32,000 nucleotides of DNA, from NCBI GenBank assembly GCA_942493105.1, contig OW818668.1, forward strand, positions 1,050,001-1,082,000, read 5' to 3'. Source of the stretch: an uncultured Erysipelotrichaceae bacterium (GTDB lineage: Bacteria > Bacillota_I > Bacilli_A > Erysipelotrichales > Erysipelotrichaceae). Below the pieces are notes generated by a model that did not search any database, was not told the origin of the DNA, and saw only the letters and a program-made list of their open reading frames with translations. Below are positions 6,320 through 31,400 of this stretch, one piece after another (the stretch's first letter is position 1; every line of letters begins with the position of its first letter). Made by a program: the position numbers and the translations under genes.

Positions 6320-6347
6320 ACGTGTTTAACACCAGAAAGGAATAACT

Positions 6348-6647
6348 ATGGATCTCACAGCTCTACTTATCTCAGCTTCGATGGCGATCGTTTATTTCTT
6401 TGTTTATCGTTTGTTTGCTTATCAGAAACTTAAATGGAAAATGATCCATTCGATTTGGATTCCGTTACTGTATGCCATTGGCTTTACTGGCTTTGGATTG
6501 AGTTTATTATCAACCCCGTGGTTTGGAGCCAATCGTACAGCCTTATCCATTATTCAAGTTTTAACTGAACTAAATCTGCCTGTCATCATCTTCTTTGTCT
6601 TATATGTGATCTTTGTCTTTCTTGATCAAAAGAAAGTTAAAGCCTGA
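6348..6647 (+). CDS. Small 3-TM membrane protein, paralog 3 of 3
   Basis: RBS aaaggaa. Contains the KLKWKMIHSIWIPL core. Confidence 0.75.
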   Translation: MDLTALLISASMAIVYFFVYRLFAYQKLKWKMIHSIWIPLLYAIGFTGFGLSLLSTPWFGANRTALSIIQVLTELNLPVIIFFVLYVIFVFLDQKKVKA

Positions 6648-12575: not shown

Positions 12576-12651
12576 GCCGACATAGCTCAACTGGTAGAGC
12601 AACTGAATCGTAATCAGTAGGTTGCGGGTTCAAGTCCTGTTGTCGGCACCA
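12576..12651 (+). tRNA. tRNA-Thr (anticodon CGT); integration target of the island
   Basis: Acceptor GCCGACA/TGTCGGC, anticodon stem ACTGA/TCAGT, loop ATCGTAA, encoded CCA. TGaTATAAT extended -10 at 12535-12543 upstream. Confidence 0.9.
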
Positions 12652-12652
12652 T
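12635..12652 (+). repeat. att core copy 1 (tcctgttgtcggcaccat), the 3' end of tRNA-Thr
   Basis: The 18-bp string is identical to 26541-26558. Confidence 0.9.
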
Positions 12653-12660
12653 TATTCATT

Positions 12661-12687
12661 AAACCCTTATAGAATAAGGGTTTTTTA
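12661..12687. terminator. Terminator hairpin after tRNA-Thr (element-borne copy)
   Basis: aaaccctta-tagaa-taagggttt plus T-run. Homologous to the hairpin at 26567-26592, with compensatory stem changes. Confidence 0.75.
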
Positions 12688-13794
12688 TTAGGTCATCTTC
12701 CGAATCGTACCAGAATCGTACCGCTTTTCTTGAATTTCATTTAATTTATCCACTAAAAGTAATTGATTTTGCTTGAACCAGTGACCATAAGTGTTGTTAA
12801 CCATATCTCTGGAGTGGCCTAATCTTTTTGCGATATCAAAGTCACTTAGTCCCATATTTATTAGTAAGGAAACATGGGAATGCCTAAAATCATGAATTCT
12901 TACTTGTTTAACTCCGGCAAGTTTACAATATTTGTTTTTGTGTCTTTCCAGAGTTGTTGCTGCGATTGGAACATCATAACCAAAGAGAAACCTTTCTGAA
13001 GAGAAATCTGGATACTTTTGCATCTCGTTGATGTGTGTTCTTAAGAGTTCATAGATATGATCCGGGAGAATTACATCCCTGTAAGATGTATTTGTTTTGG
13101 GAGTAGTAATTTTATGGGATCTAATATCAAAGTTTTTCGTAACATGTAGTGTTTTTTCTTTGAGATCAATGTCTCCAACTGTAAGAGCCTGTAATTCACC
13201 TTTACGGATTCCGCACCAGTACAAGACATTGAATATCAGAAAATAGTGCGGATTATCAACCACATCGATAAATCGATTAAATTCATCAAGTGTAAAATAA
13301 AGCATCTCTTTCTTTTGCTCATTAGTCTTTACGTACTCAATGGTGAATGGTGATTTGGCAATTTTGTCGTAGTTCACACCCCAAGTAAGAACGCCCTTAA
13401 AAGTCGCTTGAATTTTTTTTAAGTAGTTGTTTGAATATCCGCTTGCTAGAAGTTTGTTTTGCCAACGTTTAATCATTTCTTTACTAATCTGTGATACTTT
13501 AGTTTTCCCAAAAACTGGTAAAATGTGCATCTTATGAACTTCTTGGTATGAGAGTAATGATCGATACTTGAATTTGGGTTTTCGATCTTCAATATAAAGT
13601 GAAAACAATTGCTCATAAGTGATTTTCTCATCAGCAATATATAAGCTCTCTAAAAACTTTCGTTCTGCTTCTTTGGCTTCTTTAAGTGTCTTCCACTTAT
13701 TGCTTTCGACCTTTTTCTGTCGATATTTCCCATCACCATCGGTATAACGAACTTTGAAATAAATAGTTCCATTAGAATTTCTTCCAACTGCCAT
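12688..13794 (-). CDS. int: Tyrosine site-specific integrase (phage integrase family)
   Basis: Catalytic blocks GIRKGELQAL (R), HDFRHSHVSLLI (HxxR) and LGHSRDMVNNTYGHW (H...Y). Start set at 13794 (AGGAAGGG RBS). Confidence 0.9.
   Translation of the reverse strand: MAVGRNSNGTIYFKVRYTDGDGKYRQKKVESNKWKTLKEAKEAERKFLESLYIADEKITYEQLFSLYIEDRKPKFKYRSLLSYQEVHKMHILPVFGKTKVSQISKEMIKRWQNKLLASGYSNNYLKKIQATFKGVLTWGVNYDKIAKSPFTIEYVKTNEQKKEMLYFTLDEFNRFIDVVDNPHYFLIFNVLYWCGIRKGELQALTVGDIDLKEKTLHVTKNFDIRSHKITTPKTNTSYRDVILPDHIYELLRTHINEMQKYPDFSSERFLFGYDVPIAATTLERHKNKYCKLAGVKQVRIHDFRHSHVSLLINMGLSDFDIAKRLGHSRDMVNNTYGHWFKQNQLLLVDKLNEIQEKRYDSGTIRKMT
12703..12722 (+). repeat. Tandem AATCGTACC 9-mers at 11-bp spacing (putative arm-type recombinase sites, left end)
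   Basis: AATCGTACC at 12703-12711 and 12714-12722. The 18-bp block tcgtaccagaatcgtacc recurs at 26408-26425. Confidence 0.5.
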
Positions 13795-13849
13795 TGTATC
13801 CCTTCCTTTCAAAGTTTTTCTTTTTGTGTTTCATTTGATTTTAGAAAGA

Positions 13850-16154: not shown

Positions 16155-17522
16155 ATGACAATAAAAACAGATAATTATCGGATTATTATTAGCGATTTCG
16201 CCAAGCTTATAAGTGAAAGGAAATCAAAAGACTCTGCGCCAAAAACAGGAGTTATTAATTTCCGAGACGATCTTAAGAATGCAAAGGAACGTCCAATTTA
16301 TGAAGTTCCTCTCGAGTTACTTAGATATCGAAAAGATAATGGTCGAATAGCGAGTGACGTTTTAAGTTATGAAAGAACAGCTATGCATGATTTGGATGAG
16401 AGATTGCAGGAAACGCAAGATTTGCTTTTCAAGTGGTTGAAAGCAAAAGATGAGAAAAACACTGAAATCTTAATGAAAGACATTATAAAGAATGGTCAAA
16501 CTGAACCGTCAATAATTACATGCGATGGATTCCTAATAAACGGCAATCGAAGAAAAATGGTTCTTCAACTTTTAAACGAAAAGGACCCGACAAAATACAA
16601 GACAATGAAGGTCATCATTTTACCTAATGTAGGTGAAGATGGTGGCCAACCAACTATTAAAGAAATTGAATTGCTCGAGAATCGCTATCAATTAATGAAG
16701 TCGGGTAAATCAGAATATGAAGGACTTGATAGAGCGCTATCTATTCGGAGGAAAATTGAAATCGGAATTTCTTTAGAGGAACAGTTACTTGATGATCCAC
16801 AATATGCAGAATATAATGCAGGAGACAAGAAATTCAAAGAGATTGTAAACTCATATAGAAAGGAATTTCTGTGGCCATTAGAAAAGGTCGATGAATACCT
16901 CGAAGTCCTAAATAGATCAGGTCATTATGCTTCTGTTGAAGGTAAATGGCAATCATTTATTGATTATAGTAACTTCTTTCATGGTCAGCTGCAGGATCAA
17001 GTATATTTGGCAAAGAATGAAATCTCAGATAATGATATTGGGAAAATCCAGGATGCTTGCTTTAAAATAATCCGTAAAGGCAGCATTAATGGAATAAAAC
17101 ACAAGAACCACGAGATTATTCGAGAAATGAAAAAATTCTTAGCTGCCCCTGAAGCTAAGCAACATATCCTTAATATTGCAACAACAGTAAAGGACCTAAA
17201 ACCAGAAGAAGTTGAGGGAAAAGACATCCACGATGTTGACAAATTATGGGGTCAACATCCTGAACACAGCCAGAAACTTTCGTATAGTTTAAGCAACGCC
17301 TATGCTCACCTTGATGAACACAAAGCTGCTGAAACGCCTTTATCACTTCTTAAAGATTCATACAAGAGATTAACAAGTGAAAAGATGATTTTAGATAGTA
17401 TGAAGCCAGATGATCTTAAGGAATTTAGGAAGATTGTTGAGGATCTTGAGTTAGTGGCATATGATCTCAAAAATAAATCACTTGCATTAATTAATCGGAA
17501 AGATAAGGCGCATAAAAAGTAA
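16155..17522 (+). CDS. ParB/Srx N-terminal-domain protein with a long helical C-terminal region (cargo gene 1)
   Basis: IYEVPLELLRYRKDNGR and GQTEPSIITCDGFLINGNRRKMVL read as ParB box I and box II (GxRR arginine patch). I recognise no other domain. Confidence 0.6.
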   Translation: MTIKTDNYRIIISDFAKLISERKSKDSAPKTGVINFRDDLKNAKERPIYEVPLELLRYRKDNGRIASDVLSYERTAMHDLDERLQETQDLLFKWLKAKDEKNTEILMKDIIKNGQTEPSIITCDGFLINGNRRKMVLQLLNEKDPTKYKTMKVIILPNVGEDGGQPTIKEIELLENRYQLMKSGKSEYEGLDRALSIRRKIEIGISLEEQLLDDPQYAEYNAGDKKFKEIVNSYRKEFLWPLEKVDEYLEVLNRSGHYASVEGKWQSFIDYSNFFHGQLQDQVYLAKNEISDNDIGKIQDACFKIIRKGSINGIKHKNHEIIREMKKFLAAPEAKQHILNIATTVKDLKPEEVEGKDIHDVDKLWGQHPEHSQKLSYSLSNAYAHLDEHKAAETPLSLLKDSYKRLTSEKMILDSMKPDDLKEFRKIVEDLELVAYDLKNKSLALINRKDKAHKK

Positions 17523-19412
17523 ATGATAATAAAGCTTGGTGAATCCATTGAGTTAATCGATGATGGAAACGAACTGCTATCTTATCAGAAGAATCAAATT
17601 TTGATTTATGGCTTCCAAAAAACCACTAATGGATACAAACTAACAAATGATAAGATTATCGAAACTGTCATAAAACTTAATTCATACCTTAATGATGAGG
17701 GTATTAGTTTTAGTGCACCTGAATCCTTCAAAAAAATTGTTGACGAGAACGAAGCATCTATAAGTTCTTTTGATCAACTTAGGCTAAGGGCTTCAAACTA
17801 TAAAAAGGCAGATTTCGATGATACTGAATTCAAGAGATACATGAGGTTTTGCGATACAAATATACTCAGGAAATTGAAGCCTCACCAACTTAAAGCGTCT
17901 TATCATATGTACACAATTAGGAATGCAGCTAATTTTTCTGTTCCCGGAAGTGGAAAGACTTCGACAGTTTTAACAGCTTATGAAAAAATGAGGGTTGATG
18001 GGTTAGTAAATTGTTTAGTAGTTGTAGGGCCACCATCATCATTCTCCTCATGGAAAAATGAATTTAAATCAACGTTGGGAAGAGAACCCAATATTACTAT
18101 CCTATCTGGAATGAACAAGAAAGAAAGAGTTGATCAATATTTTGATGTTTATTCTCTTGATCGTCTGTTATTGTTGTCATTTCAAACGTACGCCAACGAC
18201 TATCAGTATATTATCAAGTTCCTGCAGCATGAAAAAATTCAGGCTTTTATCGTAATAGATGAAGCTCATTATATGAAACAAATAAATGGGAAATGGGCGA
18301 ATGCTATCTTGAAAACAAGTGATTTTGCGACTGCAAGATGCGTTTTAACAGGGACTCCATGTCCAAGAAGCTACTCAGATTTATTCAACTTATTTGACTT
18401 TATTTGGGGTAAAAATATAGCGATTTCAAATAAAGATAAAGCAGTCGTATTAAGTCTTGAGAAGCGAAAAGACTTTGATAAAGCAAGCGAAATTATCAAA
18501 AGAAATCTGGATCCATTTTTTTATAGAGTCAGAAAGAAGGACTTAGGACTTACAGAGCCATTGTTCATAGATCCAATTGTAATTAGAATGAAGGAACAAG
18601 AACGAAGAGTATATGACAGTATTTTTAAGAAGATATCGGAATTGTCCGCCTTTGATGATCCGAACAATATTGATAGTCTTATAAAACTTAAAAGTGCAAG
18701 AATCATTCGTTTAAGACAGATATTATCTTATACGGGGCTACTTAAGTCAGCCTTTACATCTGATGGTGAAAAACTCATTGATTTAAATGATCTAGAATCT
18801 GTTATTAGTAAATACGATTTAATTGAAATACCGGCAAAAATCGATCACTTATTGTCTCTAGTAAAAGAGATTCGGAAAAAGGATAAAAAGATCCTAATTT
18901 GGTCTAATTTCATTAGTACTATTGACCTAATTAAAAGACAATTGACTGACCAGGGTTATGGTGTACAGTCTATAACCGGGGAAACTCCAGTTGTAGATCA
19001 AATAGATGAAACCATTTTGACAAGGGAAGATATTATTGATGTTTTTCTCGATATGGGAAGTGGAGTTGACTTCTTAGTAGCCAATCCTGGTGCATGTGCT
19101 GAGTCAATTTCATTGCATAAAAGTTGCCACAATGCGATTTATTATGATCTATCCTATAATTGTTCACAATATCTTCAATCACTAGATCGAATTCACCGTG
19201 TTGGAGGTTCTGAAACAATTGTTTCAACATACTATTTTTTGCAATATGCTGACACGATTGACAATGATATATTTCAAAATCTTATCCAGAAAAGGGATAA
19301 AATGTACAAAGTAGTCGAATATGATTCCGATATATATACACTTGATATCGAAGTTTTCGAAGATAGAAATGATGACGACGCTACAGCGTATGACAGGATT
19401 TTTAAGAAATGA
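17523..19412 (+). CDS. SNF2-family SF2 ATPase/translocase (cargo gene 2)
   Basis: Motif I VPGSGKTS, motif II VIDEAHYMK, motif III LTGTPCPRSYSDLFNLFDFIWG, C-terminal helicase lobe ILIWSNF..., motif VI QSLDRIHRVGG. Starts immediately after the upstream stop (TAAATG). Confidence 0.85.
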   Translation: MIIKLGESIELIDDGNELLSYQKNQILIYGFQKTTNGYKLTNDKIIETVIKLNSYLNDEGISFSAPESFKKIVDENEASISSFDQLRLRASNYKKADFDDTEFKRYMRFCDTNILRKLKPHQLKASYHMYTIRNAANFSVPGSGKTSTVLTAYEKMRVDGLVNCLVVVGPPSSFSSWKNEFKSTLGREPNITILSGMNKKERVDQYFDVYSLDRLLLLSFQTYANDYQYIIKFLQHEKIQAFIVIDEAHYMKQINGKWANAILKTSDFATARCVLTGTPCPRSYSDLFNLFDFIWGKNIAISNKDKAVVLSLEKRKDFDKASEIIKRNLDPFFYRVRKKDLGLTEPLFIDPIVIRMKEQERRVYDSIFKKISELSAFDDPNNIDSLIKLKSARIIRLRQILSYTGLLKSAFTSDGEKLIDLNDLESVISKYDLIEIPAKIDHLLSLVKEIRKKDKKILIWSNFISTIDLIKRQLTDQGYGVQSITGETPVVDQIDETILTREDIIDVFLDMGSGVDFLVANPGACAESISLHKSCHNAIYYDLSYNCSQYLQSLDRIHRVGGSETIVSTYYFLQYADTIDNDIFQNLIQKRDKMYKVVEYDSDIYTLDIEVFEDRNDDDATAYDRIFKK

Positions 19413-20311
19413 AACTTTCAAATATAAAAAAACAGCGTATTAATGCTATTGTTGACTTAGTGAAATCTAGCTCATATAAGGACATAGGTAACATAAGGAG
19501 TATTTATGAAATAGATTTTCCATACTTCGAGGAAAATTTAAATTGCTTAATTCTGATTGGCATAATGATAGTTCAAAACAATCATCTTGAGATTTTAGTA
19601 GAAGATTATGATTTCACAGATATTTTAGTTTCTAAAATTGCCGACCCAAAGATTCAAATGGGGAAACTGTCAAGTTTTATTAGCCTATTTGACAATATCG
19701 ATTTCGTTCTATACCCGTCAGAATTCGAGCGAGTTATGTATTATGAAGAACGCACATTTTTGGTTGAATTTGAACTTGTAGAAATCGACAAGTCAGCAAT
19801 TGTAATAATTAATGATTATTTGAAAAAGTTAGTTTCAACTAGAAGGATGACTCTTGTAGAACTGGACAAATTAAATGAAAGGAAGAAGTTATTGGGCCAT
19901 AATGCTGAACTATTTGCATTTCAGTTTGAGATATCTGAAGCTAGTCGGTTCGGTTCAATAATCGATCAAGAAAGGATTAAGATTATTTCTGATGAATGGG
20001 TAAATGCTGGATATGATCTCATAGGGTTTAGTAAAGATGCAGCTAAAATTGGAAAACATATCGAGATTTTCATTGAGGTAAAAGCGGTACATTTGGCATC
20101 ACCAAGATTCTTCTGGAGTACTAATGAGATTGAGGTAGCCAAAACGTATAAGTCACGATACTTCCTATATTTAGTTGATGTTGACGGGTTATCTAAAAAT
20201 AGGTATGATTCAATCGTGATTATTCAGGATCCATTTGTTGCTTTGTTTAATAATGAATCAAAGTGGGAATGGGAATGCGATTCGCTTGTCTTTAAGAAAG
20301 GAGAACATTAA
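19409..20311 (+). CDS. DUF3883-like PD-(D/E)xK nuclease-fold protein with an uncharacterised N-terminal half (cargo gene 3)
   Basis: The C-terminal pattern GHNAELFAFQFE...GYDLIGF...IEVKAV...FFWSTNEIEVA...YFLYLV matches the DUF3883 layout (G..E...E / GYD / IEVK / S.NE / Y.LY.V). ATGA overlap with the SNF2 gene. Confidence 0.6.
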   Translation: MKLSNIKKQRINAIVDLVKSSSYKDIGNIRSIYEIDFPYFEENLNCLILIGIMIVQNNHLEILVEDYDFTDILVSKIADPKIQMGKLSSFISLFDNIDFVLYPSEFERVMYYEERTFLVEFELVEIDKSAIVIINDYLKKLVSTRRMTLVELDKLNERKKLLGHNAELFAFQFEISEASRFGSIIDQERIKIISDEWVNAGYDLIGFSKDAAKIGKHIEIFIEVKAVHLASPRFFWSTNEIEVAKTYKSRYFLYLVDVDGLSKNRYDSIVIIQDPFVALFNNESKWEWECDSLVFKKGEH

Positions 20312-21225
20312 TGCCTAGTAAGTATAAATTCTTCTTAGGTTATTCAGAAAATGTTCTTAAGGATAAGCGAAGTTTTCCTGATGAATCAATAGACTTGATT
20401 GTTACTTCCCCCCCCTATTCAGACAGAAGATCAAATGATTATGGTGGTGTCAAAGCAGATAAATATGTTGAATGGTTCTTGCCCATTTCCAGTGAAATGT
20501 ATCGAGTATTAAAGCCACAGGGATCCCTTATTATCAATATTAAAGAACATGTCGAGGATGGTGAGAGACAAACTTACGTTATTGAACTCATACTTGCAAT
20601 GAAAAAACAAGGATGGAAATGGGTTGATGAATACTGTTGGTATAAGAAAACAGCTTTTCCAGGAAAGTGGCCAAATAGATTTCGTGATTCATTTGAGAGA
20701 TGCCTTCATTTTACTAAAAACAAGAAATTTTTTATGGATCAAGATGCTGTAAAAGTAAAGATCGGTGATTGGGCAGAAAAAAGATTTAAATCTATGTCAG
20801 AAGTTGATTTTATCAATCATGCGTCAAAGAATAATAAGCATCTCAATAGAAAAGTGTCAAATTGGCTTGATAAACAGACTGTATATCCACACAATGTATT
20901 GGTTTTTGAGGAAGAGCACTATCCTACAAATGTACTTGAAATATCTCCTGTAACAACTGATAAGAATCATAGTGCTTGTTTTCCTATTGAGTTACCGGCT
21001 TGGTTCATCATGTTATTATCTCCAGAAGGAGGAATAGTTTTGGACCCATTTTCCGGAATCGGAACTACTGCTCTAGCTGCAGTTCTCCTAAATAGGAATT
21101 TTAAGGGGATTGAAAAGGAAGAAGCCTATAAAAATATATCTGAAGAGAACCTTGCAGATTTAAGTAACTCTCTACTTTTGAAAGAAAAGAAGAAAAAGAA
21201 AACAATCAAGGAAGAGATTATATAG
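20311..21225 (+). CDS. Beta-class DNA methyltransferase, N4-cytosine/N6-adenine family (PF01555-type; cargo gene 4)
   Basis: Motif IV DLIVTSPPYSDRR precedes motif I LDPFSGIGTTALAA (beta permutation). TAATG overlap with the upstream gene. Lys/Glu-rich tail. Confidence 0.85.
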   Translation: MPSKYKFFLGYSENVLKDKRSFPDESIDLIVTSPPYSDRRSNDYGGVKADKYVEWFLPISSEMYRVLKPQGSLIINIKEHVEDGERQTYVIELILAMKKQGWKWVDEYCWYKKTAFPGKWPNRFRDSFERCLHFTKNKKFFMDQDAVKVKIGDWAEKRFKSMSEVDFINHASKNNKHLNRKVSNWLDKQTVYPHNVLVFEEEHYPTNVLEISPVTTDKNHSACFPIELPAWFIMLLSPEGGIVLDPFSGIGTTALAAVLLNRNFKGIEKEEAYKNISEENLADLSNSLLLKEKKKKKTIKEEII

Positions 21226-21341
21226 TAAATTTTTATAAGTGCTTCTTACAAGGTTTTTAGTACAAGATCAGAATCATGTCTAATATCAATAGCATTAACG
21301 TTGAAAAATGTACATAACACTAAAAGATCGGAGTTTCTAGT

Positions 21342-24300
21342 ATGAAACTAGTTGAAGACAGCATTAGGGAAATTCTAACAAGACTACCATCTGAAAACTC
21401 TTGTCTTGATTACAAACAAATCCCGTATAAAAAAGAAAAGTATCATGACCTAATTAAGGATGTTATTTCAATGCTAAATTCTGAAGATGGGTACACTCAA
21501 GATAAATATCTAATTTTTGGCGTAACGGATGCGCATGTGAAAATTGGTTTAAGGATTCCAATGCCAGATGATAGCGAGATTCAAGCTATAATGGACAAAA
21601 TTCGTCCAAGGCCAGAAATTCAGTCAGGTAAACTGATATTTGAGAGTTTGGAATTTGGTTACATTATGATTAACGGTTCCAATAATGAACGAGTTTATGA
21701 AGTCAAGCATACTTATCCTGAACAAACTCACGAAATTCATGAGGGGCAAGCATTCATTAGACGTTGTACATCTACAAGAATAATGAACCAAAGTGACAGA
21801 AGACGAATTGAAAGCATAGCTATCGAAAGTACGCATTTTCTAGCGGGACAATCATTTCTGTATCCTGTTATAGGTAATCCAAGCCAATTTTCGAATATGA
21901 ACCCAATGCTCATTGCCTCTTTAATTGGATCTTGGAATGAAAAAAATCCGAATGACATATTGTTTATTGAATCATTGATTAAAAGCGATTATTTTGTTTG
22001 GACCGTAAATATCCAGACATTACTTACACAAGGGGACAAGAACCTATCTCTAAAGAATGGTGTTTGGAGTGTAAAGAATAGAAATGAAATTATTGCTACA
22101 AACTGTAAAACACTTTTTGACAATCATATTGATTCAATTGTGAGTCAAATCGCAAAATCTCTATCTGTTTCAGATCCACTTTTTGATATTCCAAATGAGG
22201 ATAGACTGATTGCTCAATTGGGTGGATCAGAGACGAGTTTATCTACTGAATTGACTCGAGAGATTGCCAAAACATTAGCGATTTTGTCGAGTAAGAAACA
22301 TATCTTTTCGAACTGTACTGTTGGTAGAGTTAAAGAGGTTATTGATACTGCCGTTTACAGCATACTAAATGAAAAGGATTGGAAGATATGGGAAACAATT
22401 AACTGGAATTTAAAGTATCTAGTTCAGGCATCTCCTGACTCATTTTTTAGAGTTCTCGAAAAGGAGATATCACAGAGTAATAACCAAATAGAGAAACTAT
22501 TTTCTGAAGTCAATGGATCAATTAGCCAACAGTTCTGTGGTTCGGGACTTATTCATGCTTTACAAGTAATTGCGTGGTCAAAAGATTATTTTTCAAGGGC
22601 ATATTTGAATTTGCATCAAATCGATTTATTAATGCCTCATAAGACATCAGATTTGCCTATAAATATTATTCCTTGGAATATTCAAACTGAGGCACCGAAG
22701 GAAACTCGTTATCAATTAATCAACTCAATCTATCGTGAATTTGATAAAGACATATGGAGCTTCATAGAGCCGCTTTTACCAAACCAAACAACAACGGTAA
22801 TCACGATTGAAAAGCCGGAATTCATTCAAGGCAATTATGATATACAGAAAATTACGAATGAGCAATATTGGGATGATGTAAATTTCTATCTTGAAATTGC
22901 GACTAAAATTGCCAAAGGTGTACCAGATTACTTATTGTTCCTCGTAAAGCTTATTGATGAAGTACCTACAGATGGTAGAGAAAAAATACTAAATCTAGTT
23001 GTCGAATGCAATGAATCATTAATTGATGAAAAAGATAGGTTCATCATCTGGGATGAATTACTTAAATTAGTTACTAAGCATCAGAAGTTTTCAGATGCTG
23101 ATTGGGCATTTGATGAGAAAATCTTAAATGAAGTCCTTAAAGTTGCAGAGTTAATTGCACCAAAGGAAGAAGCTATGATAATTTCTAGATATTTTAAGGA
23201 GGAACAATATGAACTAATTGATGATTCAAAGGACTATAGTATCGGCGAGAGAGAATTGTTTCAGAAACAGGTAGATATTGTTGTTGATTTGTATGAAAGG
23301 AAGGGATTCGAAGGCATCAAGAATCTCGTTAAATTCTCTTCTAATAAATTCCTTGTTGGAATTGCATTTGGTCAGACCAGAAGTATTTTAGATAATATTA
23401 CGGATTATACAACTTGGTATAATTCTGATTCAGAATTAAGTTCATTTTCGCAAGGACTTTTATATCAACTTTATAGAAGATTTGGGCAAGAACTAATCAA
23501 CAAAATTGATTACACAATATTATCATGTAGTAAAAAGGTAGACTTTCTAAAGCTACTAGAATTTAATGAACAGACTTGGAAAACTGTTGAAGTCTGGCTT
23601 GGGGAGTCTGTCAATCTTTATTGGGAAAGTGTTTCTGTATTGCGTAAGAATTTTGATAAAACCGAATATGCTATTAGTCAATTATTAAAAGTAAAAAAGT
23701 ATGATAGTATAATCCAAATCATAGCTAATGATATCATTAAGGGCAAACCTGCTGATCTTGAAACCACACTAATTGCACTAGAATTAAGAACATCAGAGAC
23801 ACGAGAAAGTAATACTTTAGTTACATATTATATTCAAAAAATATTCGGATGGTTGCAAAAGAATTGCCCTGATAAATCTAGACTTTCAAAACTTGAATGG
23901 AGATATTTTAACCTTCTTGAAAGTGATGTGAGACCTGTCACACTTTTTACTGAAATATCAAGAGATTCAGAGCTATTTGTAAAGTTTCTGTCTCTTGCTT
24001 TTAGAAGTGAAACAGGACAAACAGATCCAGATCACAATCAAGAAATTGATCCCCAAAATCTTTCGGTTCATGCATGGACCATTTTGAATAAATGGAATCA
24101 AGTTCCAGGCTATAACGAGAACGGGGAATTCTCAAAGGCCCAATTTAATGAATGGTTTGACAAAGTTATCGAACTAAGTTCTCTGAACGGTAGATTAAGA
24201 ATAGCATTAACAATTATTGGAAAAGTGTTGTTTCACACTCCAAAAGACGCTACTGGGCTCTTCATTAATCGTGATATTGCATTAATCATTGATATGAAAG

Positions 24301-24536
24301 AGTATGAGTATTTACGTAATGGTTATATGACAGAGGCAATAAACTCACGAGGTGTTCACTGGGTTGATCCTTCCGGTCAAGAAGACTATAAATTAGAGCA
24401 ATCATGGAAGGATAAGGCTAAGGCCTTAGAGACTATTTGTTGTCTCAGATTTTCAGAGACTGCGAAAATGATCTCAAGTCATTTCAAAGATGAAGGAGAT
24501 AGAAACCGTGCAGAAGCTGTCGAGGAAACTGAGTGA
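21342..24536 (+). CDS. Large (1064 aa) protein with an N-terminal AlbA_2/Schlafen-like domain and a ~900-aa helical region of unknown function
   Basis: The N-terminal pattern ENSCLDYKQ...LIKDVISMLNS...LIFGVTDAHVKIGL...GQAFIRRCTSTRIM fits the AlbA_2 (divergent AAA_4) layout. GGAG RBS. No terminator between it and the methyltransferase gene. Confidence 0.5.
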   Translation: MKLVEDSIREILTRLPSENSCLDYKQIPYKKEKYHDLIKDVISMLNSEDGYTQDKYLIFGVTDAHVKIGLRIPMPDDSEIQAIMDKIRPRPEIQSGKLIFESLEFGYIMINGSNNERVYEVKHTYPEQTHEIHEGQAFIRRCTSTRIMNQSDRRRIESIAIESTHFLAGQSFLYPVIGNPSQFSNMNPMLIASLIGSWNEKNPNDILFIESLIKSDYFVWTVNIQTLLTQGDKNLSLKNGVWSVKNRNEIIATNCKTLFDNHIDSIVSQIAKSLSVSDPLFDIPNEDRLIAQLGGSETSLSTELTREIAKTLAILSSKKHIFSNCTVGRVKEVIDTAVYSILNEKDWKIWETINWNLKYLVQASPDSFFRVLEKEISQSNNQIEKLFSEVNGSISQQFCGSGLIHALQVIAWSKDYFSRAYLNLHQIDLLMPHKTSDLPINIIPWNIQTEAPKETRYQLINSIYREFDKDIWSFIEPLLPNQTTTVITIEKPEFIQGNYDIQKITNEQYWDDVNFYLEIATKIAKGVPDYLLFLVKLIDEVPTDGREKILNLVVECNESLIDEKDRFIIWDELLKLVTKHQKFSDADWAFDEKILNEVLKVAELIAPKEEAMIISRYFKEEQYELIDDSKDYSIGERELFQKQVDIVVDLYERKGFEGIKNLVKFSSNKFLVGIAFGQTRSILDNITDYTTWYNSDSELSSFSQGLLYQLYRRFGQELINKIDYTILSCSKKVDFLKLLEFNEQTWKTVEVWLGESVNLYWESVSVLRKNFDKTEYAISQLLKVKKYDSIIQIIANDIIKGKPADLETTLIALELRTSETRESNTLVTYYIQKIFGWLQKNCPDKSRLSKLEWRYFNLLESDVRPVTLFTEISRDSELFVKFLSLAFRSETGQTDPDHNQEIDPQNLSVHAWTILNKWNQVPGYNENGEFSKAQFNEWFDKVIELSSLNGRLRIALTIIGKVLFHTPKDATGLFINRDIALIIDMKEYEYLRNGYMTEAINSRGVHWVDPSGQEDYKLEQSWKDKAKALETICCLRFSETAKMISSHFKDEGDRNRAEAVEETE

Positions 24537-24559: not shown

Positions 24560-25582
24560 ATGACAAACAAATTTCCTTTCGGCCAATTAGTTACTCTTGA
24601 ATTTCAGAAGGATGAATCTCCAAAAAAGGTGTTTGTTTTAGATTCATTTCCAAGTGCTGTGTATGCGAAATGGGTTATGGATACTGGAACTGTTTACAAC
24701 TTGTTACCAGTAGCTAGTGAGCCGAGTAACCTCTGGTACGGTGATGCAAAAGAAGCCATTCAAATTATTGAGAATATTTCAATCCCTGATGATTTGGGAA
24801 GTTTGTCTTTACCTGATAAGGAAGTAAACGGAATTAAGAACCGGATTATACTTAACAATATATTAAAGCCGATGTATTTCCATCGGTATGATGTCTGGAT
24901 GTGTTACTTGTCCCCAGATTTTAAAATGAATGACAAGCAAAAAAAGCTATTGAAAAAACGTTATGAACCATTGATGAAAAACTTTTGTTTAAATGATGTT
25001 ACTATTCCTTTAGAAAATAGTATAAGTTGCGATAGGAATAGGGTGCTTCAAATCACTAGTGAGCTAATTCAGTCTAGAGCGGATTATTTGATCCTTTTGG
25101 GTGATCTAGCCATTCAGTATTATTTAAGAAACGTTTTCGATTTCAAGTTTAGAAACCTCAGAGATTATTCTGCTAGATGCGGCTATGGGAAGCCATTTAA
25201 AGCTCGTATAGGGTCGAAAGATATTGAAGTAATATTATTAGCGTCACCAAATCAAATCATGGATACAAGTAGAAGAAACGCCTATTGGTACAATGCCCAT
25301 AAGACATGGGAAAATTCTGAAAAAATAGTTGATATGAGAACATCTTATTATTTCATTAAGGATCTTGAACTTGTGGGAAAATGTGATGGGATGACGCCTT
25401 ATATTTATCGAGACAATGAGTGGCAATTTGATTATTTGCTCATGGATAGAATTATTGGATACGATGAAACGGAGCAGAATACCCCATATTGGTGTGGAAA
25501 TTCTGACATTATGAGAACAGTTGAGAGAATATCTAAGGATGATGTGAAGAGAATTTTGGGAGTAAGCTTTAGTTTCTTTTGA
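24560..25582 (+). CDS. Divergent uracil-DNA-glycosylase-superfamily-fold protein with an ~80-aa C-terminal extension (paralog A)
   Basis: The order of blocks mirrors the UDG fold: KKVFVLDSFPSAVYAKW (motif A position), NNILKPMYFHRYDVWMCYLSP, ADYLILLGDLAIQ, EVILLASPNQI (motif B position). Clear paralog of 28400-29179. Confidence 0.45.
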   Translation: MTNKFPFGQLVTLEFQKDESPKKVFVLDSFPSAVYAKWVMDTGTVYNLLPVASEPSNLWYGDAKEAIQIIENISIPDDLGSLSLPDKEVNGIKNRIILNNILKPMYFHRYDVWMCYLSPDFKMNDKQKKLLKKRYEPLMKNFCLNDVTIPLENSISCDRNRVLQITSELIQSRADYLILLGDLAIQYYLRNVFDFKFRNLRDYSARCGYGKPFKARIGSKDIEVILLASPNQIMDTSRRNAYWYNAHKTWENSEKIVDMRTSYYFIKDLELVGKCDGMTPYIYRDNEWQFDYLLMDRIIGYDETEQNTPYWCGNSDIMRTVERISKDDVKRILGVSFSFF

Positions 25583-25699: not shown

Positions 25700-26161
25700 A
25701 TGAGAAAATTCTTCCTGGTGCTATGTGTTCTTTTATTATGTGGATGTAGTGGGGTAAACAATGAACCAAATGATGAAGACCCTGTGGACGAAGATCCTGT
25801 TGATGAAGAACCTGCAAGAGTGGTTTTAGAAGTCCCCAATGCTATCACAATTATTGACGTATTCTATAACAATGAACTAGATGGTAATAAACAGTACTTC
25901 GGCAAATGGGTCAAAACTTCAGCTCTCTTTGATAAAATTGATCACTCTTGGACTGGAGATTTATGGGTCTATTTCGATGCAAAAAACTCAAAGGGTTATT
26001 ATGGTCACTATGGAATTTTGTGTAATGAAATGAGTAAAGAAGAAAAGGCTAAAATCTCCAATTTCGACAAGGGAAAACCAGTTGTTTTTATTGGATTGAA
26101 TCAAGGAATAATTGGTGATAGTAGAATTGAATTTAATAAGTGCGAGTTTCCAGAATATTGA
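25700..26161 (+). CDS. Lipoprotein with an acidic DE(D/E)PV repeat linker, function unknown
   Basis: GGAGG RBS. Signal peptide plus lipobox LLCGCSG. Then NDEDPVDEDPVDEEP and a ~110-aa globular domain. Confidence 0.7.
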   Translation: MRKFFLVLCVLLLCGCSGVNNEPNDEDPVDEDPVDEEPARVVLEVPNAITIIDVFYNNELDGNKQYFGKWVKTSALFDKIDHSWTGDLWVYFDAKNSKGYYGHYGILCNEMSKEEKAKISNFDKGKPVVFIGLNQGIIGDSRIEFNKCEFPEY

Positions 26162-26405: not shown

Positions 26406-26454
26406 ATTCGTACCAGAATCGTACCAAATCAATTATCAAAAGCTGAATTGTACC
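26406..26454 (+). repeat. Three AATCGTACC-type 9-mers (putative arm-type sites, right end)
   Basis: ATTCGTACC at 26406-26414, AATCGTACC at 26417-26425, AATTGTACC at 26446-26454. Same orientation as the left-end copies. Confidence 0.5.
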
Positions 26455-26533
26455 GATAAAACACCATACGAACTATCAAAAAACTAATTTTTCTGATTAT
26501 TTTAAAGGATTTTCGAATGAATTATATTCGTAA

Positions 26534-26558
26534 GTTCGATTCCTGTTGTCGGCACCAT
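26534..26558 (+). pseudogene. Displaced 3' fragment of tRNA-Thr carrying att core copy 2
   Basis: gttcgattcctgttgtcggcaccat is a T-loop plus 3' acceptor plus CCA with no 5' half. The core at 26541-26558 is identical to 12635-12652. Confidence 0.85.
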
Positions 26559-26566
26559 GACACATC

Positions 26567-26592
26567 AAACCCTGATAGAATCAGGGTTTTTT
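26567..26592 (+). terminator. Terminator hairpin (presumed original tRNA-Thr terminator)
   Basis: aaaccctga-tagaa-tcagggttt plus T-run. Confidence 0.75.
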
Positions 26593-26677
26593 GAACCTCA
26601 ATTCGCTCAGGTGTAACAAAAGTGTAACAGTTTATAAAAAAACGATAGAAAAATGAATGTAAAACACGCATCGTAGG

Positions 26678-26706
26678 TAGACTTAGGAATGGGTAAAGAG
26701 GATAAT
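26678..26706 (+). promoter_or_regulatory. Cassette promoter module copy 1 (TAGACT-17-GATAAT)
   Basis: gGTAGACT, exact 17-nt spacer ending aaagag, then GATAATGGGA. Confidence 0.55.
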
Positions 26707-26810
26707 GGGAGTAACGATTTGTGTCAATGATTTAGGTATCTTCCAGTCCTCGTATTGTCTATTTGGGTATGCGCCTAATAGAACTTCCAAAGAAAAGATG
26801 GGTGAAACAA

Positions 26811-27620: not shown

Positions 27621-27742
27621 CCCAAATCGTCTGTCTCGTCATCCCGAGGGACACGATTGGGTGTGCCTAAACGTTCATGCTAGACTGTGGGGAATGCTCC
27701 ACCTGGAGCGAATACGAAGACCGTGGTGAGCTCTATAGAATT
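27621..27742 (+). repeat. Structured intergenic repeat, copy 1 (long hairpin plus conserved core)
   Basis: Hairpin CCCAAATCG...CGATTGGG at 27621-27661 enclosing atcccgagggacacga. The core 27655-27742 is roughly 80-85 percent identical by eye to 30763-30848 and includes the GCTCC/GGAGC hairpin. Confidence 0.6.
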
Positions 27743-28117: not shown

Positions 28118-28176
28118 TTTACAGTCACAGGATTATAAAATTATGATAATTAATCTAATGTAACAAGTATAGTAGG

Positions 28177-28205
28177 TAGACTATGAGGGCAATAAAAGGG
28201 ATAAT
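28177..28205 (+). promoter_or_regulatory. Cassette promoter module copy 2 (TAGACT-17-GATAAT)
   Basis: gGTAGACT, 17-nt spacer ending aaaagg, then GATAATGGGA. Confidence 0.55.
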
Positions 28206-28399
28206 GGGAATGATAGTATTTATTAATGAATGCCTAATTATTTTTTGGCAAAAGCAACATTAAATTCTTATTAGGCTGGCCTGACCCCCAAAAATTGGTA
28301 TAACTTTGAATCAGAGATTTGGAGTGGCTGAGAAAAATAGTTAACATATTGAAAGATATTATGATGCTGGTTTACTTACATTTATTAAGGAGAACTACA

Positions 28400-29179
28400 A
28401 TGTATAAATTTCCATTTGGGCAGGATGTAAAAAGACTAGTACAGCAAGACCAAACACCAAAAAAAGTGTTCGTTTTAGGTGTATATGCCAGTGCAGTACA
28501 TGCGAAATGGATTCGAGATGGGAAGATCATATGTCAAGCCTTAGCAGTCGCGAGTGAGCCTTATATCTTTTGGGACGGAAATTTAAACGATACGTTGGCA
28601 ATTATAAACCAGATTAACATACCAGAAGAATTAGGTACACTCGTTTTGCCAAGCAGTAATTTGAATGGTCCGTCAGCGAAAGTGCTTGTAGAGAACATTC
28701 TTAAGCCAATGGGATATACTCGAAGCGATGCGTGGTTATGTGATTTGTTACCTGAATCGAGATTAAATCCAAATCAACTCAAAGTTATTAAAGAAAGATA
28801 TAACCCTCTAATCGAAAAATACTGTCTCAATGAGGTAACAGTACCTATCGAGGATGGTAATTTCAGTGATGAAACAAGAGCGAAGAAAATCACAGAAGAA
28901 ATATTAAAATCGCAAGCTGATTCGATTGTGCTTTTGGGTGATATTCCAATTCAACAATATTTGAAATATGAATGTAATATTGAGTTCAAGAGTCTCAGGG
29001 AATATACTCAAAAATATGGATATGGAACACCGCTTAGAGCCCAAATAGGTACGAAAGAGTTTGAAGTGATATTGTTAACTCATCCAAGACAGATTGGTGG
29101 ATTGGGTAGATCAAGCACTTATTGGTCAACCGAGCATAAGATTTGGGAGATAAGTGCTGAATTAAAGAGAAGTCGGTAA
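28400..29179 (+). CDS. Divergent UDG-superfamily-fold protein (paralog B, outside the island)
   Basis: AAGGAG at 28387-28392. The start MYKFPFGQ aligns with MTNKFPFGQ of 24560. Blocks KKVFVLGVYASAVHAKW, ENILKPMGYTRSDAWLCDLLP, ADSIVLLGDIPIQ and EVILLTHPRQIGG. Confidence 0.5.
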   Translation: MYKFPFGQDVKRLVQQDQTPKKVFVLGVYASAVHAKWIRDGKIICQALAVASEPYIFWDGNLNDTLAIINQINIPEELGTLVLPSSNLNGPSAKVLVENILKPMGYTRSDAWLCDLLPESRLNPNQLKVIKERYNPLIEKYCLNEVTVPIEDGNFSDETRAKKITEEILKSQADSIVLLGDIPIQQYLKYECNIEFKSLREYTQKYGYGTPLRAQIGTKEFEVILLTHPRQIGGLGRSSTYWSTEHKIWEISAELKRSR

Positions 29180-30562: not shown

Positions 30563-30762
30563 TTTATCCCTTTCCTCATAATAAAAGCCATTACAAAAAT
30601 TGTAACAGAGAATCTTTAGATTTACATATCTATTACATATTGAAGTGAATATTTTGAGGAAGTGTGAAAGTGGATTAGGTCGACATTTATAGAGTAACAA
30701 TGTTGAAGTGGTCTGAGAAAAACTACTCAGACTTTGGCTTTGGCAAACTCACCGTTGGACAA

Positions 30763-30848
30763 GATTGGTAGTGCCTAAGCGTTAATACTAGAATGTAGGG
30801 AATGCTCCATGTGGAGCTGATACGAAGACCGTGGAGAGTTCTGGAATT
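30763..30848 (+). repeat. Structured intergenic repeat, copy 2 (core only)
   Basis: gattggtagtgcctaagcgttaatactagaatgtagggaatgctccatgtggagctgatacgaagaccgtggagag. The hairpin stem is conserved, while the loop changes from ACCT to ATGT. Confidence 0.6.
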
Positions 30849-31232: not shown

Positions 31233-31320
31233 GAGGATTGTTGGTTTTTAGATTACAGTGGATTTATAAGAGAGCCCTGTGAGGATTATCATATAAGTAC
31301 AACAGAGTAAAAAGGTTTGG

Positions 31321-31400
31321 TCGTTCCCGTTATCCCGAGGGACACGAACTCACTCAGCCCTTAAGCTAATACTCGTCAACACAGAACGCTTCCCTAAGTG
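31321..31400 (+). repeat. Structured intergenic repeat, copy 3 (diverged)
   Basis: Shares atcccgagggacacga (31332-31347) with 27641-27656, and shares gcccttaagctaatactcg with the core. GGGACAC...GTGTCCC forms an inverted repeat. Confidence 0.4.

What the first reader, a model, noticed from the sequence alone, without database searches (positions are those of the whole stretch)
24560..25582. Divergent UDG-fold protein as the last cargo gene: possible DNA-glycosylase-type anti-phage effector
The order of conserved blocks mirrors the uracil-DNA glycosylase superfamily fold. A beta-strand plus motif-A position (KKVFVLDSFPSAVY) comes first. It is followed by a helix and then hydrophobic-strand segment (NNILKPMYFHRYDVWMCYLSP, compare GxxLxxxLxxxG...vyitNxvkCrP in family 4/5 UDGs). 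Next comes a central strand (ADYLILLGDLA), and last a motif-B position (EVILLASPNQI). The motif residues are highly atypical. There is no GQDPY/GExPG, and the usual motif-B His is Ser here, whereas the paralog at 28400 has His (LLTHPRQI). An extra ~80-aa C-terminal domain with Cys, Trp and Tyr residues is present only in this copy. Glycosylases of the UDG superfamily that attack modified phage DNA (Brig1-type defence) have been described. A divergent UDG-fold gene carried on a satellite-like island next to a methylation-linked system is therefore a plausible new variant with a different substrate.
Basis: partly seen in the sequence, partly recalled or inferred. Interest (0 to 1): 0.7.

Follow-up and report, generated by a model that had tools for sequence, protein, structure and literature searches.

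The report
Remodelled UDG-fold protein on satellite island
This gene really does encode a protein with the fold of a uracil-DNA glycosylase, carried on a small mobile island. However, it is a one-off, fast-evolving copy that has lost the residues its 108 relatives never change and has gained an extra small acidic domain, so it probably no longer cuts bases the way its family does.

Summary
An AlphaFold model (residues 1-255, pLDDT above 90) matches only UDG-superfamily structures: UdgX, family 4, SMUG1, TDG and MUG. The protein belongs to an uncharacterised family of about 255 aa, mostly from gut and rumen bacteria. The 259-aa copy at 28400-29179 is a normal member.

The island copy is an outlier. 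It differs at 20 of 84 near-invariant positions, against 0-7 for the others. It has evolved 3-4 times faster than its paralog. It alone lacks Gly28, His35, Asp116, His229 and Arg231, each present in 108/108 relatives. Sixteen of the 20 changes lie on the loops that form the base pocket.

Residues 259-340 are a separate acidic domain. Elsewhere it occurs as a free-standing ~80-aa protein or fused to other enzymes.

The gene lies inside a 14-kb satellite-like island inserted in tRNA-Thr. It is second to last, not last. The normal paralog lies outside the island.

I favour a non-canonical, probably catalytically impaired DNA-reading module (0.4) over an active retooled glycosylase (0.3). It has no sequence relationship to Brig1.

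The parts
24560..25582 (+). Complete gene, 340 aa (P0001): a UDG-fold domain plus the C-terminal 'X' domain.
   Evidence: ORF list. Homologues at E down to 4e-71. The N-terminus MTNKFPFGQ aligns with the family N-termini.
24560..25324 (+). UDG-superfamily fold domain (aa 1-255).
   Evidence: AF2 pLDDT above 90. Foldseek PDB matches are UdgX, family-4 UDG, SMUG1, TDG and MUG. Twenty of 33 relatives hit PF03167.
24641..24655 (+). Motif-A position. It reads DSFPS here, against GVYAS in 108/108 relatives at Gly28, Tyr30 and Ser32.
   Evidence: The register G28 = Ung G62 comes from hhalign (weak).
24905..24907 (+). Tyr116 at the end of strand beta-2. It is Asp in 108/108 relatives and aligns with the base-reading Asn80 of Thermus UDGa.
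25244..25255 (+). Motif-B position. It reads SPNQ here, against HPRQ in relatives (His229 and Arg231 are 108/108). His229 aligns with H155 of Thermus UDGa.
25334..25579 (+). 'X' domain (aa 259-340), starting at an internal Met that matches the start of free-standing X proteins. It is acidic (pI 4.5).
   Evidence: 68 representative clusters at E<1e-3. Alignment A2 shows all 8 near-invariant positions kept. AF2 pLDDT 85. No significant fold match. Charge figures.
28400..29179 (+). Canonical paralog (P0002, 259 aa) with all family-invariant residues and a good AAGGAG ribosome-binding site. It lies outside the island.
12628..12686 (+). attL: the 3' end of tRNA-Thr(cgt) plus a terminator hairpin.
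   Evidence: tRNA at 12576-12651. Direct repeat with 26534-26592, 86% over 59 nt.
26534..26592 (+). attR: a duplicated tRNA-Thr 3' end plus a terminator hairpin. This is the right border of the island.
12705..12722 (+). 18-nt exact repeat TCGTACCAGAATCGTACC just inside attL. It is also present at 26408-26425 just inside attR. These may be integrase arm-type sites.
   Evidence: family D17. The role as arm sites is inferred.
12688..13812 (-). Tyrosine integrase of the island.
   Evidence: PF00589 at E 9.5e-20 and PF14659.
21342..24536 (+). Upstream gene, ending 23 nt before P0001. It encodes a 1064-aa protein with an N-terminal Schlafen/AlbA_2 domain. It is not a conserved partner of the UDG-like gene.
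   Evidence: PF04326 at E 1e-8. Its homologues occur without a UDG-like neighbour.
25700..26161 (+). The real last ORF of the island: a 153-aa lipoprotein-like protein with a strong GGAGG ribosome-binding site.

Best explanation
The gene encodes a two-domain protein.

Residues 1-255 are a genuine UDG-superfamily fold. The domain descends from an uncharacterised family of stand-alone ~255-aa proteins and joins the clade of the neighbouring chromosomal paralog. It has accumulated 3-4 times more unique changes than that paralog. Twenty of the family's 84 near-invariant positions were replaced, and 16 of these lie on the strand-end loops that form the base pocket and DNA face in UDGs. The losses include the motif-A Gly (G28D), His35, the Asp at the base-reading position (D116Y), Pro184, the motif-B His (H229S) and Arg231.

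Residues 259-340 are a separate acidic domain ('X'). Elsewhere it is a free-standing small protein or is fused to unrelated enzymes. The fusion probably arose when a stop codon was lost.

Most likely the protein no longer carries out its parent family's base excision. It would work as a non-canonical, probably catalytically impaired, DNA-reading UDG-fold module. The UDG part is basic (pI 8.9), and the X domain would couple it to a partner or regulate it. In this view it is accessory cargo of a phage-satellite-like island inserted in tRNA-Thr.

Shown: the fold, the descent, the accelerated rate, which residues are lost, the domain fusion and the island borders. Inferred: loss or impairment of catalysis, DNA binding, a role in phage conflict, and what X does.
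For: - Fold: pLDDT above 90 for aa 1-255; all top PDB matches are UDG-superfamily structures.
- Family membership.
- Outlier status: 20 of 84 conserved columns changed, against 0-7 (median 1) in 31 other members.
- Invariant residues: in 108 other members, G28, Y30, H35, S93, D116, P184, H229 and R231 are each 108/108, and P0001 alone differs.
- Clustering: 16 of the 20 changes fall in five pocket-loop segments (Fisher p 2e-6, with segments chosen after the fact).
- Rate: Tajima relative-rate test gives 66 vs 19 unique changes, p 3e-7, and is significant with all six outgroups.
- Mapping to characterised enzymes: D116 aligns with N80 and H229 with H155 of Thermus UDGa. In that enzyme H155S lowers k2/Km from 2.4e5 to 94, and N80 makes the bidentate contact to the base (PMC5387724).
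- No compensation at motif A: position 3 is Phe, so there is no Asp or Asn that could stand in for the missing His, as happens in family 2.
- X is a real, conserved domain family that is fused promiscuously to other enzymes. It is acidic.
- Island borders and satellite-like modules.
Against: - Catalytic residues are notoriously plastic across UDG families. The motif-2 His is absent in the active families 2 and 6, and the motif-1 Asp/Asn is absent in families 4-6 (PMC5387724).
- P0001 keeps several invariant residues that could be catalytic. These are Asn124 and Gln127 in the 'motif 3' region, where Asn89 of UDGa positions water, together with Glu54, Asn90 and Arg161.
- It has gained an Asp at position 28 and the canonical Pro at motif-A position 4.
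- More aromatic residues at Phe30, Tyr35 and Tyr116 recall the aromatic-lined pocket of Brig3.
- The intact 340-aa ORF at 56% divergence implies purifying selection, but that does not show what is being selected.
- No orthologue exists, so conservation of the new residues cannot be checked.
- The tools return no atomic coordinates, so pocket geometry could not be inspected.
Confidence: 0.4

Rival explanations
1. First reader's reading. It is an active DNA glycosylase whose pocket has been retooled for a different base, probably bulky, hypermodified or non-pyrimidine. It would act as a stand-alone anti-phage effector of the Brig type.
For: - It has the UDG fold.
- It lies among the cargo of a satellite-like island, next to SNF2/methyltransferase and Schlafen-like genes.
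- There is precedent: the UDG-superfamily defence glycosylases Brig1, Brig2 and Brig3 each have their own pocket.
- Fast evolution concentrated on the pocket is what an arms race would produce.
- Asn124, Gln127 and Glu54 are kept, while Asp28 and Pro31 are gained.
- Families 2 and 6 are active without the motif-2 His.
Against: - It lacks both catalytic strategies named in PMC5387724 at their usual positions. There is no Asp or Asn at motif-A position 3, and no His at motif B.
- The motif-A Gly is replaced. From memory, this Gly is shared by families 1-5, and it is present in the Brig1 sequence.
- It shows no sequence relationship to Brig1.
- It is a singleton with no orthologues.
- In Getz et al. 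only 1 of 7 UDG-like candidates tested gave defence.
Confidence: 0.3
2. It is a decoy or antagonist related to the neighbouring canonical enzyme. A dead copy would either soak up phage inhibitors aimed at the canonical glycosylase, or shield DNA from that glycosylase.
For: A canonical paralog lies 2.8 kb away on the chromosome. The fold is kept while catalytic-type residues are lost. The fused X domain could act as a signalling handle.
Against: The remodelled part is exactly the DNA and inhibitor-binding face, and the base-reading residues His35 and Asp116 are also gone. It would therefore be expected to bind neither the same base nor the same inhibitor. The adjacency to the paralog is explained by the tRNA-Thr integration site. 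No such system is known for UDG folds.
Confidence: 0.06
3. It is a decaying relic with no function.
For: It is a singleton. It has a weak ribosome-binding site (tagagtATG). It has lost invariant residues.
Against: The 340-aa ORF is intact despite 56% divergence. Sixty-four of 84 conserved positions are kept, and the fold is predicted confidently. The X domain keeps all 8 near-invariant positions of its own family. By my estimate, neutral drift of that extent would have introduced stop codons.
Confidence: 0.07
4. It is an ordinary uracil or mismatch repair glycosylase.
For: It has the UDG fold.
Against: It has no match to any Pfam, NCBIfam or PADLOC model. All motif residues of families 1-5 are absent. 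It sits on a mobile island.
Confidence: 0.02

Closest known systems
The uncharacterised ~255-aa UDG-superfamily family to which the paralog at 28400-29179 belongs (consensus KKVFVLGVYASAVHA ... AVASEP ... NGPS ... AWLCD ... LLGDxPI ... HPRQ).
   Same: The homology is clear (E 4e-71, 44-45% identity). The fold and domain length are the same, and 64 of 84 near-invariant positions are shared.
   Different: P0001 lacks eight residues that are invariant in 108 members: G28, Y30, H35, S93, D116, P184, H229 and R231. It has evolved 3-4 times faster. It alone carries the X domain. The family has no characterised member: there is no NCBIfam or PADLOC model, and RefSeq calls it 'hypothetical protein'.
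Family-4 UDG (Thermus UDGa, S. tokodaii UDG) and UdgX.
   Same: These are the best structural matches (Foldseek E 8.5e-5 to 1e-3, TM 0.45-0.63 on the target). The order of motif A, the stacking-residue loop, the beta-2 Asn position and motif B aligns.
   Different: Identity is about 10%. Only one Cys is conserved, so there is no four-Cys Fe-S site. A beta-hairpin (aa 33-53) is inserted after motif A. The motifs GE(A/G)PG and HP(A/S) are absent in P0001.
Brig1, Brig2 and Brig3: UDG-superfamily anti-phage glycosylases.
   Same: They share the superfamily fold, act as single genes, and lie in mobile or defence regions. Brig1 (E147) and Brig3 (D127) have an acidic residue in the base pocket, as the canonical family here does at D116.
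   Different: There is no detectable sequence relationship to Brig1. P0001 itself has Tyr at the acidic position, and no motif-A Asn (Brig1 has GLNPG; Brig3 has N50-P51-S52). Its activity has not been tested.
Vaccinia D4: a UDG with a catalysis-independent role as a polymerase processivity subunit.
   Same: It is a precedent for a UDG fold used for DNA scanning or binding and partner tethering rather than repair (abstracts of PMC1936997 and PMC4450493).
   Different: D4 is a family-1 enzyme that is still catalytically active. It is a different family, with a different partner and different biology.

Membership tests
UDG superfamily (fold level) | An alpha/beta fold with a central parallel sheet, matching solved UDG structures. 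| tested here: met
   The AF2 model has pLDDT above 90 for aa 1-255. The top 30 Foldseek PDB hits are all UDG-superfamily structures, with probability 1.00.
UDG superfamily (Pfam PF03167) | A score above the Pfam gathering threshold (24.3 bits). | tested here: not met
   P0001 gives no hit at E<=1. The paralog scores 15.6 bits. Twenty of 33 relatives hit at E<0.1, the best at 6e-6.
UDG families 1-5 and UdgX | Motif A of the form G-x-x-P-x after strand beta-1, with a conserved Gly. | tested here: not met
   P0001 reads D-S-F-P-S. The Gly is replaced by Asp, while the Pro is present.
UDG families 1, 3, 4, 5 and UdgX | Motif B His, which stabilises the leaving group. | tested here: not met
   Ser229 sits at the position aligned to H155 of Thermus UDGa.
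UDG family 2 (MUG/TDG) | An Asn at motif-A position 3 that positions water in the absence of the motif-B His. | tested here: not met
   Position 30 is Phe. The rule comes from PMC5387724.
Family-4 UDG | A cluster of Cys residues that binds a [4Fe-4S] centre. | tested here: not met
   Only one Cys (C115) is conserved in the family alignment. The Fe-S cluster of the S. tokodaii family-4 enzyme is noted in PMC11078745.
Canonical ~255-aa family (P0002 type) | Significant full-length sequence homology. | tested here: met
   E 4e-71 to 6e-28 over aa 1-255. The neighbour-joining tree places it with P0002, P0003 and P0004.
Canonical ~255-aa family (P0002 type) | The invariant residue set G28, Y30, S32, H35, E54, N90, S93, W113, D116, N124, Q127, R161, P184, H229 and R231. 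| tested here: not met
   Eight of the 15 are lost in P0001, and each is 108/108 in the other members. Positions 27-35 and 51-58 were part of the search patterns, so their invariance is partly circular. Positions 93, 116, 184, 229 and 231 were not.
Brig1 family | Sequence homology to Brig1. | tested here: not met
   hhalign of alignment A1 against the Brig1 protein gives E 0.61 over 8 columns. The Brig1 sequence came from the supplement of PMC11078745.
Brig1, Brig2 and Brig3 (function) | Excision of a modified phage base and single-gene phage defence. | not testable with these tools
   This needs enzyme assays and phage challenge.
Brig2 and Brig3 families | Sequence homology. | not tested
   The sequences are not in the text held for the preprints.
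Phage-satellite / PICI-like island | An integrase next to an att site, a repressor, a replication initiator, a packaging-redirection gene, and flanking direct repeats. | tested here: met
   The DnaD-like loader is phrog_5708 at E 5e-46. The TerS-like hits are weak. Helper dependence has not been tested.

The most novel reading that the evidence does not exclude
P0001 would be an active restriction-type DNA glycosylase that works without the motif-A Gly/Asp/Asn and without the motif-B His, using a new catalytic set (for example Asp28, Glu54 and Asn124) on a hypermodified or purine base. Its acidic X domain would act as a built-in DNA-mimic autoinhibitor or trigger sensor that holds a toxic enzyme in check until infection. 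The same X module would then play this role for the other enzymes it is fused to (DnaB_C-like ATPase, HD-type hydrolase).
Probability: 0.1. Interest if true: 0.8.

Novelty: new variant of a known kind. Interest (0 to 1): 0.45.

Why it matters
UDG-fold glycosylases have only recently been recognised as anti-phage effectors (Brig1-3). This locus adds three things.

1. It reveals an uncharacterised and fairly widespread UDG-superfamily family in gut and rumen bacteria. The family has an invariant Asp where uracil-specific enzymes have Asn. Brig1 and Brig3 also carry an acidic residue in the base pocket.
2. It shows a naturally occurring, island-borne derivative of that family. The whole base pocket was rewritten on a fast branch, which makes it a natural experiment in how far the UDG fold can move from its catalytic set.
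3. It identifies a new small acidic domain that is fused to several unrelated enzymes and also occurs in a prophage accessory region.

If the protein is active, it widens the known catalytic repertoire of the fold. If it is inactive, it would be a pseudo-glycosylase among the cargo of a mobile island, and I found no described example of that. Either result can be obtained with simple biochemistry. Because the protein is a singleton with no functional data, the present interest is moderate.

Tried and rejected
- **Direct sequence searches with P0001.** Pfam, NCBIfam, PADLOC, PHROGs and PDB sequences gave no hit. Family profiles against PDB sequences also gave no hit.
- **Brig1 membership.** Rejected by hhalign. 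The Brig2 and Brig3 sequences could not be obtained.
- **The UDG-like gene as a conserved partner of the upstream Schlafen-like gene.** Rejected, because homologues of that gene lack such a neighbour.
- **A conserved 'UDG plus X' two-gene module.** Rejected, because no X homologue lies near any of 88 canonical loci.
- **A conserved operon partner for the canonical family.** None was found. The only recurrent neighbour is a RumA-type methyltransferase in 13 of 80 loci. Among 143 immediate neighbours there are 126 different Pfam families.
- **Phage origin.** The canonical family is absent from 50,697 phage genomes and present in 8 of 2.9 million IMG/VR contigs. The X domain is absent from the phage genome collection by tblastn.
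- **Orthologues of P0001.** None closer than 45% among 5.8 billion protein clusters. None in JGI metagenomes. Its own contig is not in the contig index.
- **Fold of X.** No significant PDB or BFVD match. The best PDB hit is a T6SS immunity protein at E 0.46, and the best viral hit is at E 0.009.
- **Rfam.** Only tRNAs were found.
Full report
**Observation.** The ORF at 24560-25582 (+) is real and encodes 340 aa. Its N-terminus MTNKFPFGQ lines up with the N-termini of its homologues, so the start codon is right. A second copy at 28400-29179 (259 aa, taking the Met that aligns with the family) is 45% identical over residues 4-260 (E 8e-87) and ends where the family ends. The last 80 or so residues of the island copy have no counterpart in it.

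**Fold.** P0001 on its own hits nothing in Pfam, NCBIfam, PADLOC, PHROGs or PDB sequences.
- A search of 5.8 billion protein clusters found 32 homologues, almost all 250-275 aa (E 4e-71 to 6e-28).
- Twenty of the 33 sequences give sub-threshold or weak hits to Pfam PF03167 (UDG), the best at 6e-6.
- AlphaFold2 with this alignment gives pLDDT above 90 for residues 1-255.
- Foldseek against the PDB returns only UDG-superfamily structures at the top: UdgX and family-4 UDGs (E 8.5e-5 to 1e-3, probability 1.00), then SMUG1, TDG and MUG.

**The parent family.**
- A pattern scan of one genome per species found 363 stretches that encode relatives. Among the 80 listed they come mainly from rumen and gut Clostridia and Bacteroidales, with Anaerovibrio, an Erysipelotrichaceae bacterium, Solobacterium and an Atopobiaceae bacterium as well.
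- Four Variovorax megaplasmids carry it in an ICE-like setting, where RefSeq calls it 'hypothetical protein'.
- It is absent from 50,697 phage genomes and present in only 8 IMG/VR contigs.
- It has no conserved neighbour. A RumA/TRAM-type methyltransferase lies upstream in 13 of 80 loci. Otherwise 143 immediate neighbours fall into 126 Pfam families, with a few defence or mobile-element types: TIR, WYL, resolvase and TraX at two each. One member sits beside SNF2, UvrD-like and DUF4062 genes.
- Its G+C content does not differ much from its flanks (median -0.004).
- No NCBIfam or PADLOC model covers it.

It is therefore an uncharacterised, stand-alone, patchily distributed UDG-superfamily family.

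**Mapping to characterised enzymes.** Their numbering agrees with the residues named in PMC5387724: E41, G42, E47, F54, N80, N89 and H155 for Thermus UDGa, and Q63, Y66 and F77 for E. coli Ung. The comparisons are weak but sensible.

| Family position | Aligned residue |
|---|---|
| Gly28 | Ung G62, the first residue of GQDPY |
| Position 30 | Ung D64 |
| Position 89 | the stacking Phe54 of UDGa |
| Asp116 | Asn80 of UDGa, which makes the bidentate contact to uracil |
| His229 | His155 of UDGa |

In UDGa the H155S mutation lowers k2/Km from 2.4e5 to 94. The canonical family thus looks like a His-dependent enzyme with an Asp in place of the base-reading Asn. Brig1 (E147) and Brig3 (D127) also have an essential acidic pocket residue and act on cytosine derivatives. 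From this I infer that the canonical family may read an amino-bearing base.

**The island copy is an outlier.**
- It deviates at 20 of the 84 columns that are at least 90% conserved. The other 31 full-length members deviate at 0-7, with a median of 1.
- After adding 77 family proteins from the genome loci, G28, Y30, H35, S93, D116, P184, H229 and R231 are each 108/108 in the others, and only P0001 differs: D, F, Y, K, Y, A, S and N respectively.
- There is a caveat. Residues 27-35 and 51-58 were part of the retrieval patterns, so their invariance is partly circular. Residues 93, 116, 184, 229 and 231 were not.
- Sixteen of the 20 changes fall in five segments that follow strands beta-1 to beta-4 or start the helix at 92. 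In UDGs this is the pocket and DNA face (Fisher p 2e-6, with segments chosen after seeing the data).
- A neighbour-joining tree places P0001 with the clade of P0002, P0003 and P0004 on a very long branch.
- Tajima's relative-rate test gives 66 vs 19 unique changes (p 3e-7) and is significant with six different outgroups.
- The local signature 'EVILL' before motif B is shared only by P0001, P0002 and P0003.

P0001 is therefore a fast-evolving offshoot of the same lineage as its chromosomal neighbour, not an ancient separate family.

**C-terminal domain.**
- A full HMMER scan of 1.84 billion representatives with residues 255-340 found 68 clusters at E<1e-3. Most are free-standing proteins of 75-95 aa. 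Some are fused to a DnaB_C-like ATPase (P0085), to a region with a weak HD_4 hit, or to other unknown regions.
- P0001 keeps all eight near-invariant positions of that family.
- The homologous region begins at Met259 (MRTSYYFIKD...), which matches the N-termini of the free-standing proteins. I infer that the fusion arose by loss of a stop codon between two adjacent genes.
- With this alignment AlphaFold gives pLDDT 85, with four or five strands and three helices. There is no significant structural match in the PDB or BFVD.
- The domain is acidic (median net charge -6, pI 4.6), whereas the UDG part of P0001 is basic (pI 8.85).
- Free-standing members occur in the accessory region of a prophage, after the lysis genes and a Dam methylase. 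The DnaB_C-like fusion P0085 lies next to WYL and PDDEXK_4 genes. Another free-standing member lies next to a metallo-beta-lactamase-fold gene.
- No X homologue lies near any canonical family member, so the fusion is unique.

**Genomic setting.**
- tRNA-Thr(cgt) lies at 12576-12651. Its 3' end plus a terminator hairpin is repeated at 26534-26592, with 86% identity over 59 nt and an 18-nt exact core.
- An exact 18-mer (TCGTACCAGAATCGTACC) lies just inside both ends. I read these as possible integrase arm-type sites.
- Between the repeats lie a tyrosine integrase, an HTH repressor, a DnaD-like loader (phrog_5708, E 5e-46) and a weak small-terminase-like protein. Cargo on the + strand follows.
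- The cargo comprises a 455-aa protein of unknown function, an SNF2 helicase, a NOV_C/DUF3883-type protein, an N6/N4 methyltransferase, a 1064-aa Schlafen/AlbA_2 protein, P0001, and a lipoprotein-like ORF.
- The island has 33% G+C against 40% for the core genome.
- P0001 starts 23 nt after the Schlafen-like gene, with no terminator between them and only a weak ribosome-binding site.
- Homologues of the Schlafen-like gene occur alone in defence-type neighbourhoods, without a UDG-like gene. P0001 is therefore a separate module.
- The canonical paralog lies 1.8 kb beyond attR, outside the island, and has a strong ribosome-binding site.
- That flank is also low in G+C. It carries a GTGTAAC-N4-GTGTAAC repeat at the place where attL has its TCGTACC repeat. 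It may be the remnant of an older island.

**Interpretation.**
- The intact ORF at 56% divergence, the confident fold and the well-kept X domain argue that the gene is functional.
- The loss of invariant residues is extensive. It includes the motif-A Gly, which I recall as conserved in families 1-5 and which the Brig1 sequence also shows. It also includes the Asp at the base-reading position and the motif-B His. Motif-A position 3 has no compensating Asp or Asn.
- P0001 therefore lacks both catalytic strategies named in PMC5387724 at their usual positions.
- I conclude that it does not do what its family does. I rate a non-canonical, probably impaired DNA-reading module (0.4) above a fully active retooled glycosylase (0.3).
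- The second reading stays open for several reasons. UDG catalysis is plastic: families 2 and 6 lack the His. Asn124, Gln127 and Glu54 are retained. Asp28 and Pro31 are gained. The new Phe, Tyr and Tyr residues could line a pocket for a bulkier base.
- Decoy and dominant-negative ideas are unlikely, because the face that would bind the parental base or its inhibitors is the part that was rewritten.
- With no orthologue and no model coordinates, the question cannot be settled by computation here.

**Comparison and novelty.** Structurally the closest known enzymes are family-4 UDG and UdgX. The closest functional analogues are Brig1-3. By sequence P0001 belongs to none of them: Brig1 was tested and rejected, and Brig2 and Brig3 could not be tested. 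It is a new variant within a known kind, namely UDG-fold proteins carried as mobile-element cargo. Interest is moderate (0.45). The parent family and the X domain are themselves undescribed and may be the more productive leads.

Noticed in passing
window 12576-12722 and 26408-26592: The island borders are defined by a repeat of the tRNA-Thr 3' end plus its terminator (attL 12628-12686, attR 26534-26592). An exact 18-mer, TCGTACCAGAATCGTACC, lies just inside each end and may represent integrase arm-type sites. The island is about 14 kb at 33% G+C, against 40% for the core genome.
   Followed up: yes
window 28400-29179, and loci L006-L097: The canonical paralog belongs to an uncharacterised UDG-superfamily family (363 matching stretches in a one-genome-per-species collection). 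The family has an invariant Asp where uracil-specific UDGs have the base-reading Asn, plus invariant His35, His229 and Arg231. It is a candidate new UDG family, possibly specific for an amino-bearing base. It has no conserved neighbour, and a RumA-type methyltransferase lies upstream in 13 of 80 loci.
   Followed up: partly
window 25334-25579; proteins P0065-P0132; loci L098-L104: A new small acidic domain family ('X', about 75 aa, consensus YYxIxD..GK...Y.Y..G.W..D....I.DRL.GYD..E..DSPY..GN.DIM..IEEI). It has no Pfam model and no significant fold match. It occurs free-standing in a prophage accessory region, and fused to a DnaB_C-like ATPase, to a region with a weak HD_4 hit, and to other regions.
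   Followed up: partly
window 16155-24536: A co-directional cassette, in order: a 455-aa protein with no family hit, a 629-aa SNF2 helicase (weak ZorD/DpdE/DrmD-type hits), a 300-aa NOV_C/DUF3883-type protein (PD-T4-1-like hit), an N6/N4 DNA methyltransferase, and a 1064-aa Schlafen/AlbA_2 protein. The first four overlap or abut and look like one methylation-linked defence module that matches no complete PADLOC system. Homologues of the 1064-aa protein occur alone in defence-type neighbourhoods.
   Followed up: partly
window 25700-26161: The true last ORF of the island. It encodes a 153-aa protein with a lipoprotein-type signal (LLCGC), an acidic PVDED repeat, and a weak tRNA_anti-like/OB hit (E 1e-4). 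It has a strong GGAGG ribosome-binding site.
   Followed up: no
window 26600-26630: Just outside attR there is a GTGTAAC-AAAA-GTGTAAC repeat, at the position where attL has TCGTACC-AGAA-TCGTACC. The whole right flank (26.6-32 kb) has 35% G+C and encodes only unknown ORFs. It may be the remnant of an older island at the same tRNA.
   Followed up: no
window 26663-26730 vs 28162-28229: Two blocks (21 nt and 37 nt) recur with identical spacing upstream of the 268-aa ORF (26763) and upstream of the canonical UDG-like gene. Each contains the same promoter-like TAGACT-17-GATAAT element. This looks like a shared regulatory region.
   Followed up: no
window 27629-27734 vs 30752-30842 and 31320-31347: A repeat of about 91 nt at 82% identity covers the start of the 146-aa ORF at 27677. 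The second copy has ATA in place of ATG and an in-frame stop, so it looks like a fragment of a paralogous gene.
   Followed up: no
window 5572-6647: Three consecutive ORFs of about 100 aa each (5572-5874, 6002-6319, 6348-6647) encode similar small membrane proteins, each with a shared '...LKWKM.HSIW(I/L)PL...' segment. They are tandem paralogs of unknown function in the core genome.
   Followed up: no
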